Shown here: positions 6,001-12,000 of the stretch, in pieces | Layout of the letters: each line of letters opens with the position of its first letter | Position numbering within the stretch: position 1 is the first letter of the stretch | Origin: a virus | Taxonomy: Duplodnaviria > Heunggongvirae > Uroviricota > Caudoviricetes | Length of the DNA: 26,402 nt | Virus record (IMG/VR): IMGVR_UViG_2541047828_000003 | Coordinates: 1-26,402 of that record | Strand: one strand, 5' to 3' | Program-made: the position numbers

Positions 6001-9000
6001 ATGGATTTGCTATTGTTACCAGTGGGCTGGCATCTTCTGGCAATGACGTTTATGAAAATTATATGGCACTGGCTTTTGACAGTGTAGACGATGTGAACGT
6101 GAGACGTTCGGCAGATGTCACAAGCTACCCCGTAGAAAATGGTGCTACTGTATCGGATCACGTTCAAATTAAGAATAATCGGTTTTCTCTTAAAGGGCGC
6201 ATCTCTGAAACACCGATTAAAAGCGATCCTGGCTTGTTAAAGAGTGCAGGGGTGAACGGGAACAGAAGATCATTAGCTATTGATTATCTGAATCAGATTA
6301 TGGACAGTAGACAGCCTTTTCTTCTTGTTACAGAAAATAAAACTTTTGAGAACGTTGTTTTAACAGGCATCGAATACACAGAAGAGGCAAGCGAATCTCT
6401 GGTATTTGATCTTAGCTTTGAACAAATCAGATTAGTTTCTTATGGCACTGTAAACACTGTAGCTCTCAAAACACAGCCATCTAAGAACATTGGGGCTAAT
6501 ATGAAAAAACGTGTTAACACTGAAAAATCAAGTGAAGGTGAAGACACTATTACTCCTGCCTTTAAACAGGAATAGCCGTAAACGCCTCTAAAACGCTCTG
6601 TAATGATGTAATTATAAAAGAGGCCACCAATCTATGTTGAAGCCTCTTTATTGCGTCTATGGCGTTGTTTTACGCCTTAAATTTGATTTTTTATTGATTG
6701 ATAAGCCTTTCTCTATTTCAGGGTAGCGTAGAAGCTCAATATAGTTTTTAAGCTCTACTGGAGAAGCTGCATTCTTGCTATATGTGCGGAATGTTTCTGT
6801 ATTGCCGCGTGTATGGCCCAGGAGAAGGGCGATCCTGTCTTCTGGAATTTGATTTCGATCAAGAAGCTGTGCTACTCCGTGTCTCAGAGAATGAAACACC
6901 TTCCTTTCTGTTCCCTTTTCCCCTAAAGCCTTTCGTTTAGCTCTTGTAAATCTCTGCGTGTGCCACGTGGAACGTTTACCATCGGCCCGGTCTGTAATGC
7001 TGGCGTGATAGAACAAAAAGCCATTGTGAGGCTTTTCACGAAGAGATAACACCAACGGAGTGATAAGGCTATGCACAGGAACAAGACGTGCCGCAGCTTT
7101 CGTCTTTCCCTGTGTGATTTCAAAACACAGCACACCTTCGATCTCTTTCACATCGTCTATTGTGAGACTTGCTATCTCATTGATCCGCATACCTGTATAA
7201 GCACCGATAAGACACAAAGCCATCATTTCTTTGTTTTCTGCTGAATCACCGGAAAATACTTGCAACACTTGCAATAGCTCTTTGTTAGAAAATGCCTCAT
7301 AGCTCTCTCTACTTTGTGCCACATCAAGCCTATGCCCTCGCCAGGGGGAGAGCGCCCTTTCTGGCGCATCGTGGTAACGTGATGAAGCTAACTCCCATAG
7401 CTGGGCCATTGGGCTGATATAATTTGCAATTGATTGTTGTGAAAGGGTTTTTTGCATGTGTTCAATCCAGCCTGTAACAGTGGTGCGGCTTACATCTTGC
7501 AATGCAATATCAGGCTTTTTACGGTAGGAGAGAAACATCTCTACCGCTTTTCTTGCCTTAGCTAAAGTGGCTGGCTTCTTCTTCGTGCTGTTAATTGTCA
7601 GGTAGATTTCAAGAATTTTAAGCAATGACGGACACGAAGACGCTGTATCTTGCATTCTGGTAGCTGTTTTGGCGTATTTAGCCTTACTGCGTAACAGTTC
7701 CAGCGTGTTCTCTATTGTGCTGTTTACAGGGGCGACACTCTCCCGTAGACAATGGTATTCATCTGCAATCTGATCACGCTTTCTACGTGCAACACGAAGA
7801 TTACTTGTGTGCAGACTTCTAACAAACGTCCTTTTTCCTTCAAAAAAGGGCTGCATATACACAGGCAACGTGATCCTCAAATAGTAGTTACCGTAAGAAT
7901 CACAGATTATGTATTGATTGGGCTTGTATCTCATAAACTCCCCGGCTAAAGTGTCGGAGCGTTTGTAATGTGAAAATTGATTGTGACGCATAGAAAATGA
8001 TGATTTTTCTATAAGATTCAATCAATTAGCAATGGTCGTAGGTGATGGCATTAACACGAGATTAATCGAGTGTTTTACTCCTATTATCGGCACCATTCAA
8101 ACATCTCCCCAAGTCTACTAAAGTCTTTCAAAACCCCTTATAATCCGCGTATTAAAGCCCCGTTCGTCTTTTGACGTCTACTAAAGTCCCTCAAAATCTA
8201 CGGCCAGATGGGGGTACTTATGGGGGTATTTGCTGTTCGGTTTAGTGGAGGTACCCCCAAGTGAAACTCAATGCCCGTCAAATAGACACAGCCAAGCCAA
8301 AAGAGAAGGCTTACAAGCTGGCCGATGGTGGCGGTTTGTATCTCTTGGTAAAACCTAATGGAGGTAAATACTGGCGACTTAAATATCGTGTAGCTGGTAA
8401 AGAGAAGCTATTGGCACTAGGTGTGTATCCTGAGGTTACTCTAGCCGATGCTCGGGCAAAACGTGAAGATGCGAAAAGAGGTATCGCTGGTGGTATCGAT
8501 CCGATGGAAGCGAAACGAGAGGAAAAGATTGCCCGGGAAACGCAGTTAAACAACACCTTCAAAGATATTGCCCTTGAGTGGCACAGCAGTAAATTAAAAA
8601 AATGGTCTGCTGGTTATGCTTCAGACATCCTCGAAGCCTTCAACAAAGATGTGCTCCCTTACATTGGCAAAAAACCAATCGCCGAAATCAAACCACTTGA
8701 ACTTCTGAATGTGCTGCGGCGCATCGAGGGGCGAGGTGCTACAGAAAAAGCCAAAAAAGTGAGGCAGCGGTGCGGGGAAGTTTTCCGCTATGCAATAGTC
8801 ACTGGTCGCGCAGAGTATAACCCTGCACCAGACCTTACTAGCGCGATGCAAGGCCATGAATCTAATCATTACCCTTTCCTTACAGCCAAAGAATTACCTG
8901 ATTTTTTCAAGGCATTGTCCAGTTACTCAGGAAGCGCATTGGTTGTTATGGCGGCTCGTCTACTGATTATCACCGGCTTGCGAACTGGCGAACTACGTGG

Positions 9001-12000
9001 CGCATTATGGGATGAAATTGATTTCAACAAGGCTATCTGGGAGATACCCGCTTCACGTATGAAAATGCGGCGGCCTCATATTGTGCCATTGTCTGAGCAG
9101 GCTCTTTCGCTTATTGGGAAGATTAGAGAAATAACAGGCAATTACCCTCTTATGTTTCCCGGGCGCAATGATCCAAGGAAAACAATGAGTGAGGCCAGCA
9201 TAAACCAAGTGTTTAAGCGCATTGGCTACGCTGGACGTGTAACTGGTCATGGGTTCCGGCACACTATGAGTACGATTTTGCATGAGCAGGGCTATAACAC
9301 TGCGTGGATAGAAACACAGCTCGCTCACGTTGATAAGAACTCAATTCGTGGCACATACAACCATGCGCAATATCTGGATGGAAGGCGGGAGATGCTTCAA
9401 TGGTATGCCGACTATATGGATTCTCTCGAGCATGGCGGAAATGTGGTGCATATGGTGTTTGAAAAACACGCATGAAACAACTGGACAAGTGTACAGAGGT
9501 TTACTAAAGTATAGGGGAGTAGATTGATAAAAACTCACAGAGGATTGCTATTTAACAGTTAGCCCTGGAGAAGGGCAATCGCTCTTTTATAAACGAAGGT
9601 GTATTGAGCCTTCTACGCTGCTGAAAAGCGGAATGTTCTTTAACAGGCTTTGGCGCTGACAAAGCGCAATTGTTCTTTAAAACTACTGGATGTCACGCCT
9701 AATAGCGTGATCCTGCCGAAATGCAGGGTAGCTCTACCCTTGTGGAGCAAACAAACCAAAACAATCTGACTATCTTTTATAAAAAACCGCAATATGTTTT
9801 TCATATTGTGGTCTTTGGCGTATTCGACATTTGACGCAAATAAAACTCTCGCCATTCGTTGCAGGAGGGGGTTATTGCGTCATTAGTACAGGATATTAAT
9901 AAATGGCTAATTACAATTCATTAATTCGTCTCTCTGAAGTTCAAAGGCGAACTGGTTATAGCAAAGCATGGATTTATCGTCTTATTAGTCAGGGGAGGTT
10001 CCCTAAACAGGTAAAAATTGGAAGTCGGGCTATTGCTTTTGTTGAGTCTGAAATAGATGAATGGATTGAGAAGTGTATATTAGAATCTAGAGACGAGGTG
10101 GCCTGATGGAAAAGAAAAACCGCCCATTACAGGCGGCTAATTCAGATATTCGCGTATCTGATATTACGCCCCTTACAAAATCCCTTCAAGCACCAAAGCG
10201 CACACCGAAAAAGCATCGTGCCCGAGTCTATATGCTGCGTACTGGTATAGAGGGATGGACAGAAAACGACATTCTTCGCTACTGCCGTCTGTCTTCTGGT
10301 CGTAACTATGCAACAGAGTTAGAACGCCAGCTTGGAATCACTCTGGAGCGTATCGACGAAAAGAATCCTGATGGTATCGGAACACACCTTCGCTACCGTT
10401 TCTCCTGCCGTGGTGATGTTCTGAAAGTGATCACTCATATTAACCATCTTGCGAACATAAATGATCACAACGGACTTTCTCAGCAGGAAATTGCCGACAT
10501 TCTGAAACTCTACCCGGACGCGTTTAACGCCGCTTAACGGAGACTGAAAATGAACATCGAAAAAAGCAGATTAATTTCTGAGGCCGCCCCTCATCTGAAC
10601 GCCTCTCTGAGCACAATTAACGGTAATGAATTTGCCGCAATTGTCCCGGTTATTCCTGGTCATATCGGTGGGCGTGAAACCAATATTGTTAGCGCAAAAG
10701 CGTTACACAAAGCGTTGGGCGTGGGAAAAGACTTCTCTACATGGATCACTGATCGCATCTCTGAATATGACTTCACCATTGGGCACGATTACTCAGTCCA
10801 TAAAACTATTTCCCCAAATTTGGGGAAAAGCCCGAATGGCGCGGCTTACAGCAAGATTAAGCAGTCTGGCAGACCCGGCAAAGACTATCTGTTAAGTGTC
10901 GGAATGGCGAAAGAACTGGCAATGATCGAACGCAATGATCAGGGTCGCGCTATCCGCCGTTATTTCATCCAGTGCGAGGAAGAATTACAGCGTAGCGTTC
11001 CTGAAATCGCCGCCCGCTATCGTCGCCAGCTAAAAGCCCGTATCAGTGCCGCAAACAACTTTAAGCCAATGTGCGATGCGCTGAATATGGCCCGTGCCGA
11101 GCAGGGGAAAACGACGCAGCAACACCACTACACAAACGAGAGCAATATGATTTCTCGTATCGTTCTTGGTGGGCTAACTGCTAAGCAGTGGGCGCGGATA
11201 AATGGCTATTCTGGCGAACCTCGCGACCATATGAACGCAGAACAGCTTGAGCACCTCTCATATCTCGAAAGCACCAATATCACGTTAATTGATATGGGCA
11301 TGGAATATGAGCAGCGCAAAGGAGAACTCACCCGCCTGTCGCAACGCTGGCTCGCTAAGCGTCTGGAGGCGGTCCATGTTTAAGCCGACAGGAACATCAC
11401 AACCTCAAAAACGCTACAAAGATGCCCACGGAGCACTCGTTACTGTCGAAAGCGTGTCTCACAACCAAGTGACGTTTTATCGCGACGGGTATCAATCGCC
11501 ATGCGTACAACCGCTGGCACGTTTCATGAAGGAGTTCGCGGAGGTTAACAAATGCTAACCGCCCAGAAGAAGATATTTTCACTGGCTGGCATGTCGCCAA
11601 AATCCAGTAATATGACGGCAAAATCAGGCATTAATACAGCAGATACAAGCAAAGTTTATCATTTGCTGGTGGTAGGAGCGGATGCCTTAACTATGTCAGA
11701 AATCACGGTCGATGGTGTTAGCGTTGAGAAGGTCAGCAGCTGCGCCAGAGAATTTCTGGTCGTAGATGGCTTTCTCTGCTCGCGTAGTGACTCCACAAAA
11801 ACCTTCGTCCACACGCGCGACGTTAACGAAATGAGCGCGATGTATTGTACATCTGGTGCTTCCAATAGTGAGTTTTCGGAGTCCATAAAAAAGAGCTTGC
11901 CGTTATGCGGCAACACGGTTTATGGTTATAAGGCACCTCATAAAACGGGTGCCGGGTTTCGCAGCCCGGAAATGTACGAGGCGACACATGACGCGCCGAG

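What the first reader, a model, noticed from the sequence alone, without database searches (positions are those of the whole stretch)
6657..9475. Two unrelated tyrosine integrases back-to-back across a 240-bp repeat-rich spacer
A 454-aa integrase on the minus strand and a 404-aa P4-type integrase on the plus strand diverge from a short region containing the att-like core and arm repeats. This implies tandem islands sharing or abutting one attachment locus, which can allow co-mobilisation or recombination between them.
Basis: partly seen in the sequence, partly recalled or inferred. Interest (0 to 1): 0.45.

Follow-up and report, generated by a model that had tools for sequence, protein, structure and literature searches.

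The report
Two mobile elements stacked at thrW
The two facing integrase genes belong to two separate mobile elements inserted one after the other into the same E. coli threonine tRNA gene (thrW), a well-known insertion hot spot, so the arrangement is real but ordinary.

Summary
Confirmed and ordinary. The window is E. coli chromosome downstream of proA-thrW. Both integrase ORFs are intact. The left one is more likely 425 aa (ATG at 7934) than 454 aa, which makes the spacer 326 bp rather than about 240 bp. They share only 23% identity, confined to the catalytic domain, and have different N-terminal domains.

The spacer holds a copy of the thrW 3' end (8072-8096). It is one of three copies: thrW itself, the spacer, and 25851-25866. 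These delimit a 13-kb element E1 (int1 at its far end) and a 17.8-kb element E2 (int2 at its near end).

Among 5,426 complete E. coli genomes:
- 277 have the E1 right end (int1 and core) joined to the yagP flank, E1 alone in the one genome inspected.
- 860 have thrW joined to an E2-type left end, E2 alone in the one inspected.
- 71 have the int1|int2 junction.
- 6 have the reverse-order junction.
- 948 have the site empty.

E2 is a variant of the published satellite EcCIMP1 (integrase 99.5% identical, same att core). Its GGGGGTAY repeats lie at both ends. E1 belongs to an apparently undescribed compact family with capsid, tape-measure and tail-tube-initiator homologues of phi92-like phages. 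Co-mobilisation is untested and not favoured by the arm-site layout.

The parts
1..6575 (+). Right 6.6 kb of element E1 (the whole element is L001 9219-22272, about 13 kb). It holds an HTH/replication-initiator-like gene, small ORFs, a major capsid homologue (2656-3684), a tape-measure homologue (3990-5831) and a Dit-like tail-tube-initiator homologue (5865-6575).
   Evidence: Pfam and PHROG hits. tblastn against phi92-like and Phapecoctavirus phages. The same module is conserved in Klebsiella and in a second E. coli type.
6657..7934 (-). int1, the tyrosine integrase of E1 (425 aa; the maximal ORF runs to the TTG at 8021, 454 aa). It sits at the thrW-distal end of E1 and is transcribed into the element.
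   Evidence: Pfam DUF6538 + SAM_5 + Phage_integrase. RefSeq start. R / HxxR / H / Y aligned to XerA 5HXY. Purifying selection between alleles. 881 homologues in Enterobacteriaceae.
7935..8071 (.). E1-side arm of the hybrid att and upstream region of int1. It contains an imperfect 23-nt inverted repeat (7975-7997 / 8005-8027), a palindrome abutting the core (8053-8074) and a degenerate thrW-like stretch.
   Evidence: Repeat search. 27 of 60 positions are identical to the corresponding thrW positions, shuffle p about 0.0007. The same sequence is the left half of attR in the genome that carries E1 alone (L002).
8072..8096 (+). Hybrid attachment core, a displaced copy of the thrW 3' end (GTTTTACTCCTATTATCGGCACCAT). 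The last 20 nt (8077-8096) are identical to thrW. It serves as attR of E1 and attL of E2.
   Evidence: The published EcCIMP1 core TCCTATTATC lies inside it.
8097..8260 (.). E2-side arm (P' arm) and int2 upstream region. It contains GTCTACTAAAGTC x2 (8113, 8176) and GGGGGTAY x2 direct (8210, 8222), plus one inverted copy (8251-8258) between the Shine-Dalgarno sequence and the GTG start.
   Evidence: The sequence is identical to the one that follows thrW directly in genomes carrying E2 alone (L003, L005, L006).
8261..9475 (+). int2, the P4-type tyrosine integrase of E2 (404 aa).
   Evidence: Pfam Arm-DNA-bind_3 + Phage_int_M + Phage_integrase. 99.5% identical to the EcCIMP1 integrase and 64.5% to Sakai Sp2 IntS. 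The EcCIMP1 integrase is required for excision and transfer (PMC11773190).
9476..25768 (+). Body of E2, an EcCIMP1-family PICI. Gene content: AlpA (9903-10106), AntA, Ash / C4-isrK RNAs / Icd-like, primase-helicase (14579-17338), a P22-like ejection-protein block (18101-22759), a second AlpA-family gene on the minus strand (about window 24173-24331 from the RefSeq annotation, not read here), and PerC (25033-25320).
   Evidence: 99.2% nucleotide identity to EcCIMP1 over the first 11.3 kb and 97.9% over 1.9 kb near the right end. Gene-by-gene match to the MP1 annotation.
25769..25788 (+). Second pair of GGGGGTAY arm-type repeats (P arm of E2), about 60-80 bp left of the right-hand core.
   Evidence: (family D17).
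25851..25866 (+). Right-hand att core of E2 (CCTATTATCG-CACCAT, one G shorter than thrW), followed by the native yagP-side flank.
   Evidence: All P4-type elements at thrW that were examined carry the same one-G-short form, including the experimentally excising EcCIMP1.

Best explanation
The locus is a tandem array of two independent integrative elements at the 3' end of tRNA-Thr thrW, between proA and yagP/paoD. Each element has its own tyrosine integrase and its own displaced tRNA fragment.

E1 is about 13 kb and carries int1 at its thrW-distal end, reading inward. E2 is about 17.8 kb, an EcCIMP1-type phage-inducible chromosomal island, and carries int2 at its thrW-proximal end, reading inward. 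In the order thrW-E1-E2 the two integrase genes therefore face away from each other across a hybrid att: the E1 arm, then the 25-nt thrW-derived core, then the E2 arm.

Shown:
- The three att copies.
- The hybrid composition of the middle one.
- The existence of each element alone, of both tandem orders and of the empty site.
- The identity of E2 with a published, experimentally mobile PICI.
- The integrity of both integrase genes.

Inferred:
- Int1 recombines within the 20-bp identity ACTCCTATTATCGGCACCAT.
- Int2 exchanges strands in CACCAT(T) at the very 3' end of the tRNA, because every P4-type element at thrW brings a core one G shorter on its own side.
- The GGGGGTAY repeats on both arms of E2 are the arm-type sites bound by the N-terminal domain of Int2. 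The inverted copy over the int2 ribosome-binding region may give autoregulation.
- In this strain E1 most likely arrived second, by inserting into the regenerated thrW of a cell that already carried E2. Insertion of E2 into E1's attR would give the same product.
- Each element should excise separately, by thrW x middle att for E1 and middle x right att for E2. These events would regenerate the two single-element configurations seen in other strains.
For: - **Locus identity.** The window is 100% identical to the E. coli 20KM2222 chromosome. thrW lies 13 kb upstream of the spacer.
- **att copies.** There are three direct copies of the thrW 3' end. The middle copy equals the E1-alone attR left half plus the E2-alone attL right half.
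- **Single occupancy.** E1 occurs alone in strain E3, and the E1 right end (int1 and core) joined to the yagP flank is found in 277 genomes. E2 occurs alone in strain 1943, and the thrW|int2-type junction is found in 860 genomes.
- **Tandem occupancy.** The int1|int2 junction is in 71 genomes, including O104:H4. The reverse order thrW-E2-E1 is in 6 genomes.
- **Empty site.** The reconstructed attB is found at 100% identity, and 948 genomes have the site empty.
- **Arm repeats.** GGGGGTAY occurs only at the two ends of E2: 5 copies against 0.7 expected.
- **E2 identity.** E2 is 99.2% identical to EcCIMP1 over 11.3 kb and its integrase is 99.5% identical. EcCIMP1 integrates in tRNA-Thr with core TCCTATTATC, excises on helper induction and needs its integrase and alpA (PMC11773190).
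- **int1 integrity.** The ORF is intact, the synonymous:non-synonymous ratio is about 5-12:1, and the catalytic residues are present.
- **Precedent.** Tandem arrays defined this way are catalogued: 125 in Islander (PMC4383910). O157 Sakai carries Sp1 + Sp2 in tandem at thrW.
Against: - No experiment here shows that E1 or this E2 copy still excises.
- No arm-type sites could be assigned to Int1. ATTGATTG clusters near int1 but is not significant overall, and only one 10-mer is shared between the E1 ends.
- No sigma-70 consensus promoter was found in the spacer for either integrase.
- The order of arrival cannot be decided from the sequence.
- Junction counts use an 80% coverage cut-off on 600-1200-bp probes, and clonal genomes such as O104:H4 inflate them.
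Confidence: 0.9

Rival explanations
1. A single composite island carries two integrases and one functional pair of ends (thrW and the right-hand att). The middle att is an inert scar, so the 31-kb block moves or stays as one unit.
For: The block E1-int1|int2-E2 recurs in 71 genomes. A similar head-to-head DUF6538-int / P4-int pair recurs at a tRNA-Leu fragment in Klebsiella and E. coli. Accretion into co-transferable tandems is documented for other elements (PMC13651849, title and abstract).
Against: Each half occurs alone at thrW with exactly the predicted junctions, and the opposite order also exists. The middle core is a perfect 20-nt match to thrW. Int2 arm-type repeats bracket E2 only. 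EcCIMP1 was shown to excise on its own, next to another island that did not excise.
Confidence: 0.04
2. E1 is a decayed prophage remnant and int1 is a non-functional relic. Only E2 is a live element, and the pairing is a fossil.
For: E1 lacks terminase, portal, lysis and most tail genes. It has a 2.6-kb stretch without annotated genes. No excision data exist, and in strain E3 the element carries an IS2 insertion.
Against: int1 is full-length in all alleles examined, with strong excess of synonymous change. The same compact gene set (int, tape-measure, capsid, small ORFs, replication-like gene) is conserved at 27-71% amino-acid identity in Klebsiella, which random decay would not produce. E1 is present or absent at thrW in different strains and on either side of E2, which requires recent site-specific insertion.
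Confidence: 0.05
3. The head-to-head arrangement is itself selected. The divergent integrase promoters and the shared att form a regulatory unit, so that one element senses or controls excision of the other (cross-talk or piggy-backing between two satellites).
For: The same integrase pair type recurs at two different tRNA genes. Excisionase cross-talk between elements has been reported in the EcCIMP1 host. An Int2-type repeat overlies the int2 translation start.
Against: P4-type integrases adjacent to tRNA genes are the commonest island integrases in enterobacteria, so any element with a distal integrase that inserts into an occupied tRNA gene gives this geometry. Co-occurrence is barely above independence (about 22% against 17%). 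The reverse order places the two genes 30 kb apart. L009 and L011 have the E1-type integrase without a P4-type neighbour.
Confidence: 0.01

Closest known systems
EcCIMP1, a phage-inducible chromosomal island of E. coli MP1 (PMC11773190)
   Same: The right-hand element matches it closely: integrase 99.5% identical and 99.2% nucleotide identity over the first 11.3 kb. It shares the gene order int-alpA-antA-ash-primase-ejection proteins...alpA_1-perC, the same target (tRNA-Thr between proA and yagU) and the same core TCCTATTATC. In MP1 it also lies in tandem with another island.
   Different: The distal part differs: the last ejection-protein gene and the accessory cargo, about 17.8 kb here against 19,963 bp. 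The tandem partner is on the other side. Here E1 lies between thrW and the PICI, whereas in MP1 a vat-island remnant lies distal to it.
Sp1 + Sp2 tandem prophage-like elements at thrW in E. coli O157:H7 Sakai
   Same: Two elements with different integrases occupy thrW in tandem, each with its own thrW fragment. The distal one (Sp2) has a P4-type IntS 64.5% identical to int2 and the same one-G-short right core.
   Different: Sp1 is lambda-like, with intD at its thrW-proximal end and a long (about 48-nt) thrW repeat. The integrase genes are therefore not head-to-head, and the cargo is unrelated to E1 or E2.
CP4-6 cryptic prophage and IntF of E. coli K-12
   Same: It occupies the same site, and its integrase also sits at the thrW-distal end on the minus strand next to yagP, as int1 does when E1 is alone.
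   Different: IntF is a third, unrelated lineage (24% identity over 136 aa to int1). It uses a 48-nt thrW repeat reaching the anticodon loop. The element is 34 kb.
Tandem arrays of genomic islands at tRNA/tmRNA genes, as defined in Islander/TIGER (PMC4383910)
   Same: It meets the operational definition: each member has its own integrase gene and its own tDNA fragment in the right orientation.
   Different: Nothing essential. This is one more instance, notable only because both orders and both singletons are found in nature.
Satellite phage P4 and P4-like elements (integrase, leuX target)
   Same: int2 has the P4-type three-domain integrase architecture. E2 has P4/P1-type immunity RNAs (C4, isrK), Icd-like and Ash genes, AlpA and a primase-helicase. 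Relatives of the int1/int2 pair sit at a leuX-type tRNA-Leu fragment, which by my own recollection is P4's own target.
   Different: No Pfam or NCBIfam match to P4 capsid-size genes (psu, delta, sid) was found among the E2 proteins scanned. It carries P22-like ejection-protein genes instead, and the published helper for the family is a P22-like podovirus.

Membership tests
Tyrosine recombinase / phage integrase (int1) | Catalytic domain PF00589 above the curated threshold | tested here: met
   62.3 bits against a cut-off of 27.1, residues 247-417 of the 454-aa ORF.
Tyrosine recombinase / phage integrase (int1) | Catalytic Arg, His-x-x-Arg, His and Tyr nucleophile present | tested here: met
   Alignment to XerA 5HXY: TGMR / TGVR, HSLRH / HVLRH, LGH / LGH. 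The Tyr in RTY lies 2 residues from the aligned XerA Tyr. The same motifs align with int2.
Tyrosine recombinase / phage integrase (int1) | Catalyses site-specific integration and excision | not testable with these tools
   Indirect evidence only: E1 is present or absent at thrW with precise junctions, and on either side of E2.
P4-type integrase (int2) | Three-domain architecture: Arm-DNA-bind_3 (PF13356) + central domain (PF22022) + PF00589 | tested here: met
   99.3, 116.2 and 94.1 bits, all above their cut-offs.
P4-type integrase (int2) | Match to the NCBIfam integrase model NF007246 above its cut-off | tested here: not met
   298.5 bits against a cut-off of 434. This is a clear relative of that model but below the naming threshold, so 'P4-type' refers to the architecture, not to orthology with P4 Int.
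P4-type integrase (int2) | Targets the 3' end of a tRNA gene, with the integrase gene next to the regenerated tRNA and arm-type repeats on both arms | tested here: met
   thrW lies directly upstream of int2 in L003, L005 and L006. GGGGGTAY repeats lie on both arms only. Binding was not tested.
EcCIMP1-family PICI (element E2) | Sequence identity and gene order with the type element | tested here: met
   99.2% over 11.3 kb and 97.9% over 1.9 kb, Int 99.5%. Many proteins share the same RefSeq accessions.
EcCIMP1-family PICI (element E2) | Same attachment site and core | tested here: met
   tRNA-Thr with TCCTATTATC flanking repeats, against window 8072-8096 and 25851-25866.
EcCIMP1-family PICI (element E2) | Helper-phage-induced excision, packaging and transfer | not testable with these tools
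   Shown for EcCIMP1 with phage Kapi1, but not for this copy, whose distal third differs.
Tandem island array (Islander definition) | Each member has its own integrase and its own tDNA fragment in the orientation of the tRNA gene | tested here: met
   thrW, then E1 + int1 + fragment 8072-8096, then int2 + E2 + fragment 25851-25866, all in direct orientation.
Single composite island | One pair of ends, with the parts not found separately | tested here: not met
   There is an internal att with perfect 20-nt identity to thrW. Both parts occur alone and in the opposite order.
Phage satellite (element E1, considered only) | Integrase plus own replication functions, an incomplete virion gene set, and conservation as a compact unit | tested here: inconclusive
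   The integrase criterion is met. Evidence for replication functions is weak: PHROG replication-initiator-like hits at 4e-9 and 22-bp iterons. Only capsid, tape-measure and tube-initiator homologues are present. The module is conserved in Klebsiella.
Phage satellite (element E1, considered only) | Dependence on a helper phage for induction and packaging | not testable with these tools
   No data exist. IMG/VR hits have isolate-genome-style identifiers and contig lengths that suggest predicted proviruses (my inference), so they say nothing about packaging.

The most novel reading that the evidence does not exclude
The left-hand element E1, defined by int1, may represent an undescribed family of phage satellites or phage-interference islands in Enterobacteriaceae that exploit large virulent Stephanstirmvirinae myoviruses (phi92-like, Phapecoctavirus). 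It is a compact 11-13-kb unit with its own DUF6538-type integrase and a replication-like module. Its only virion genes are a capsid homologue, a tape-measure homologue (N-terminal 42 aa 71% identical to the phage protein) and a tail-tube-initiator homologue (59-61% identical). On that reading, the thrW locus in this strain would hold two different satellites side by side that parasitise two different helper types: a P22-like podovirus for E2 and a lytic myovirus for E1. The recurrence of the same integrase pairing at tRNA-Leu would reflect satellites repeatedly stacking at the same tRNA genes.
Probability: 0.25. Interest if true: 0.6.

Novelty: new member of a known kind. Interest (0 to 1): 0.2.

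Why it matters
As found, it matters little. It is a clean textbook example of a tandem array at a tRNA hot spot, where only 948 of 5,426 complete E. coli genomes have thrW unoccupied.

It has some practical value. Nature supplies every configuration (empty, E1 only, E2 only, E1-E2 and E2-E1), and one partner is an experimentally tractable PICI. The locus would therefore suit measurements of whether neighbouring elements with unrelated integrases and overlapping cores interfere with, or assist, each other's excision. It also maps the Int2 crossover to CACCAT(T) by comparison alone.

The more interesting lead is the side observation that E1 belongs to a conserved compact element family that I could not find described in the literature and that carries structural-gene homologues of virulent phi92-like phages.

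Tried and rejected
- **tRNA scan of the window.** It found none. thrW lies 13 kb upstream of the spacer and outside the window, so the att had to be recognised through the flanking genome.
- **Arm-type sites for Int1.** Shared k-mers between the two E1 ends gave only one inverted 10-mer. ATTGATTG occurs three times within 115 bp at the int1 5' end, but is absent from the E1 left end and not significant overall, since 8 of 100 shuffles reached the count. I rejected it as evidence.
- **Promoter and terminator scan of 6500-9950.** There is no consensus promoter in the spacer, and counts do not exceed shuffles.
- **int1 as a relative of K-12 IntF.** I tested this because IntF occupies the same position in CP4-6. 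It was rejected at 24% identity over the catalytic core only.
- **Capsid query against one genome per species.** Only one close relative came back, because the method finds close relatives only.
- **Capsid query against IMG/VR.** It returned 11 loci whose isolate-genome-style identifiers and contig lengths suggest predicted proviruses (my inference), so they are not informative about packaging.
- **Nucleotide search of E1 against phages.** It gave only 46-79-nt patches, so protein searches were needed.
- **Literature searches.** Searches for DUF6538, and for satellites together with Justusliebigvirus, Phapecoctavirus or phi92, found no description of E1. The 'jumbo phage satellite' commentary concerns unrelated Pseudomonas islands.
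- **Order of arrival of E1 and E2.** Both orders predict the same three att sequences, so this cannot be resolved from sequence.

Full report
**Observation**

The two ORFs are present as described: 6657-8021 on the minus strand (454 aa, TTG start) and 8261-9475 on the plus strand (404 aa, GTG start). Pfam assigns DUF6538 + Phage_int_SAM_5 + Phage_integrase to the first. It assigns Arm-DNA-bind_3 + Phage_int_M + Phage_integrase, the P4-type architecture, to the second. BLASTP between them finds only 23% identity over 176 residues of the catalytic domain (E = 0.007). They are distant members of the tyrosine recombinase superfamily with unrelated N-terminal halves.

Two details need correction. 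First, RefSeq begins the left gene at the ATG at 7934, giving 425 aa. Homologues of 409-423 aa cover 96-100% of that version. The intergenic region is therefore 326 bp rather than about 240 bp. Second, the genes are head-to-head (divergent).

**Genomic context**

The window is 100% identical to the chromosome of E. coli 20KM2222. In the 44-kb surrounding locus (L001; window position = L001 position - 14201), the tRNA-Thr gene thrW lies downstream of proA, 13 kb to the left of the spacer. yagP/paoD lie just to the right of the window's right-hand element. No tRNA gene lies in the window itself.

**The attachment sites**

A repeat search of L001 found three direct copies of the thrW 3' end:
- the gene itself;
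- a copy in the spacer (window 8072-8096, GTTTTACTCCTATTATCGGCACCAT, last 20 nt identical to thrW);
- a copy at window 25851-25866 (CCTATTATCG-CACCAT, one G short).

They delimit E1 (L001 9219-22272, about 13 kb, with int1 at its thrW-distal end) and E2 (window 8097-25866, about 17.8 kb, with int2 at its thrW-proximal end).

**Independence of the two elements**

I built 600-bp chimeric junction probes and searched 5,426 complete E. coli genomes. Counts are genomes in which one place covers at least 80% of the probe.

| Junction | Genomes |
|---|---|
| thrW joined directly to the E2 left arm and int2 | 860 |
| E1 right end (int1 and core) joined directly to the yagP flank | 277 |
| int1 \| att \| int2 (window 7500-8700) | 71 |
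| Reverse order, E2 right end joined to E1 left end | 6 |
| Reconstructed empty site (up to 100% identity) | 948 |

Annotated examples confirm whole-element structures:
- strain E3 has thrW-E1-yagP;
- strain 1943 has thrW-E2-yagP;
- O26 RM10386 has thrW-E2-E1-yagP, with the two integrases 30 kb apart;
- O104:H4 2011C-3493 has thrW-E1-like-int1 | int2-PICI-like.

The att sequences fit exactly. The spacer att is the E1-side half of attR in the E1-only strain fused to the E2-side half of attL in the E2-only strain. This excludes a single element with one pair of ends.

**Integrity of int1**

The ORF is uninterrupted in the three alleles compared. These differ by 23-25 synonymous and only 2-5 non-synonymous codon changes. 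The catalytic Arg, His-x-x-Arg and His align with XerA (5HXY), with a Tyr two residues from the aligned nucleophile. The family has 881 members at E <= 1e-10, mostly in Escherichia, Klebsiella, Citrobacter, Enterobacter and Raoultella.

**Identity of E2**

E2 is a variant of EcCIMP1, a phage-inducible chromosomal island described in E. coli MP1 (PMC11773190). The published element:
- integrates in tRNA-Thr between proA and yagU;
- is flanked by TCCTATTATC;
- excises and circularises when its P22-like helper Kapi1 is induced;
- needs its integrase and the adjacent alpA;
- sits next to a second, non-excising island.

E2 is 99.2% identical to it over the first 11.3 kb and 97.9% over 1.9 kb near the right end. 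Int2 is 99.5% identical to its integrase, and many proteins share RefSeq accessions.

E2 encodes AlpA, AntA, Ash, a Zn-ribbon/Toprim/DUF927 primase-helicase, a P22-type DUF2824/gp7/gp20 block and PerC. The RefSeq record also annotates a second AlpA-family gene on the minus strand. It also encodes C4 antisense and isrK RNAs.

**Mechanistic inferences from the sequence**

GGGGGTAY occurs five times in the window against 0.7 expected, and no shuffle of 100 reached five. Three copies lie between the core and int2: 8210 and 8222 direct, and 8251 inverted, the last lying between the GGAGG Shine-Dalgarno sequence and the GTG start. Two lie 60-80 bp left of the right-hand core. This is the layout expected of arm-type sites for an integrase with an arm-binding domain, and they bracket E2 only. 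A second repeat, GTCTACTAAAGTC, occurs twice on the same arm.

Every P4-type element examined at thrW carries the one-G-short core on its own (right) side, whereas thrW keeps GG. The elements are E2 in three strains, EcCIMP1, the O104:H4 element and Sakai Sp2. Int2-type strand exchange must therefore lie 3' of that position, in CACCAT(T). This is an inference.

For E1, attL and attR share 20 identical nucleotides. The E1-side sequence left of the core retains significant similarity to the body of thrW (27 of 60 positions, p about 0.0007). No convincing arm-type sites were found for Int1, and no consensus promoter was found in the spacer.

**Why the integrases face each other**

E1 carries its integrase at the end far from the tRNA. 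E2 carries its integrase at the near end. Stacking them in the order thrW-E1-E2 places the two 5' ends on either side of the hybrid att, and the opposite order separates them.

The same geometry recurs with diverged members of both families. In Klebsiella pneumoniae (L010) and in a second E. coli type (L012), a DUF6538 integrase (57-65% identical to int1) lies 350-355 bp from a divergent P4-type integrase. That spacer holds a roughly 45-nt 3' fragment of a sequence I recognise from memory as a leuX-type tRNA-Leu. Other loci (L009, L011) have the DUF6538 integrase without such a neighbour.

I read this as the expected outcome at tRNA hot spots dominated by P4-type integrases, not as a functional unit. 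E2-type integrases are found in about 22% of E1 carriers (77 of 348) against about 17% of other genomes (854 of 5,078). This is my arithmetic, uncorrected for clonality.

**Comparison with known cases**

thrW is a recognised integration hot spot (PMC7545054). At least four integrase lineages use it in the genomes examined:
- IntF of CP4-6 in K-12, at the distal end, with a 48-nt repeat;
- IntD of the lambda-like Sp1 in O157 Sakai;
- the P4-type IntS of Sp2 in O157 Sakai, in tandem with Sp1;
- int1.

The Islander database defines tandem arrays exactly as seen here and lists 125 of them (PMC4383910). The finding is thus a new instance of a known phenomenon, in which one partner is a published element.

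**Co-mobilisation**

Nothing here supports or excludes it. Int2's putative arm sites are not positioned to pair thrW with the right-hand att. In MP1, EcCIMP1 excised alone. Accretion into co-transferable tandems is known elsewhere (PMC13651849, title and abstract only). I treat joint movement as unlikely but testable.

**Side observation: E1**

E1 encodes:
- an HTH/replication-initiator-like protein;
- a major capsid homologue (Phage_cap_E; end-to-end but only 22% identical to the capsid protein of the phi92-like phage ECGD1);
- a 613-aa homologue of the tape-measure protein of phi92-like and Phapecoctavirus phages (33-38% identical, N-terminal 42 aa 71% identical);
- a Dit-like protein 59-61% identical to their tail-tube initiator, which is adjacent to the tape-measure gene in those phages.

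No terminase, portal or lysis gene was recognised. The compact module (integrase, tape-measure, small ORF, capsid, small ORFs, replication-like gene) is conserved at 27-71% identity in Klebsiella. That argues for a functional element family rather than debris.

I found no description of it in the searchable literature. It may be a satellite or interference island directed at virulent Stephanstirmvirinae phages. This is speculative, at about 0.25.

**Verdict**

The arrangement is an ordinary consequence of two independent elements using one tRNA gene. Interest is low (0.2). The only notable lead is the uncharacterised E1 family.

Noticed in passing
window 1-6575 (whole element L001 9219-22272); relatives L009-L012: E1 is a compact 11-13-kb element family conserved across E. 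coli and Klebsiella. It has a DUF6538 integrase, a replication-like HTH gene and just three virion-gene homologues: capsid, tape measure (N-terminal 42 aa 71% identical) and tail-tube initiator (59-61% identical). All three resemble those of virulent phi92-like or Phapecoctavirus myoviruses. It is a candidate new satellite or interference island and was not found in the literature searched.
   Followed up: partly
window 11933-12010 and 12073-12160: Rfam finds isrK (69 bits) and C4 antisense RNA (81 bits) inside the 355-aa 'Ash' ORF (11552-12619) of E2, just upstream of the Icd-like gene. This is a P4/P1-type immunity region. It explains why RefSeq annotates a truncated ash plus icd here but a full-length ash in other strains.
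   Followed up: partly
window 18101-22759: E2 carries a P22-type gene block: DUF2824, gp7 and gp20 (Inj_translocase), followed by a 701-aa protein with no family match at the position of gp16. This fits the P22-like helper reported for EcCIMP1. Identity to EcCIMP1 breaks off at about 11.3 kb (window about 19390), inside the gp20-like gene, so its distal part, the last gene of the block and the downstream cargo differ from the published element.
   Followed up: partly
window 8251-8258: An inverted copy of the putative Int2 arm-type repeat (GTACCCCC) lies between the GGAGG Shine-Dalgarno sequence and the GTG start of int2. This suggests that the integrase represses its own expression.
   Followed up: no
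window 25851-25866; L003 38055; L005 20273; L006 (reverse complement) 24285; L007 31517; L014 34854: Every P4-type element at thrW has a right-end core one G shorter (CCTATTATCG-CACCAT) than thrW, including the experimentally excising EcCIMP1. This maps the strand-exchange region of this integrase group to CACCAT(T) at the extreme 3' end of the tRNA.
   Followed up: partly
L010 8395-11230 and L012 8385-11272: The same head-to-head pairing recurs in Klebsiella pneumoniae and in a second E. coli element type. A DUF6538 integrase faces a P4-type integrase across 350-355 bp that contain a roughly 45-nt 3' fragment of a leuX-type tRNA-Leu (tRNA identity from my own recollection of the sequence).
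   Followed up: partly
L001 11150-13779 (outside the window, inside E1): A 2.6-kb stretch of E1 has no annotated gene. It contains three tandem 22-bp units (GGTAGGTCAYWGTGARCTAGGG, 12441-12525) that look like iterons of a replication origin.
   Followed up: no
L014 32579-34535 (E. coli O104:H4 2011C-3493): The 2011 outbreak strain has the same thrW-E1-like-int1 | int2 layout, but its right-hand PICI-like element carries different cargo. This includes an AAA ATPase + DUF4435 gene pair, which from my own recollection resembles the PARIS-type defence pair (not tested with PADLOC).
   Followed up: no
thrW locus across 5,426 complete E. coli genomes: Only 948 genomes (17%) have thrW joined directly to the yagP flank. 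At least four unrelated integrase lineages use this tRNA gene, with repeats of different length: IntF of CP4-6, IntD of Sp1, P4-type IntS/Int2, and DUF6538 Int1.
   Followed up: partly
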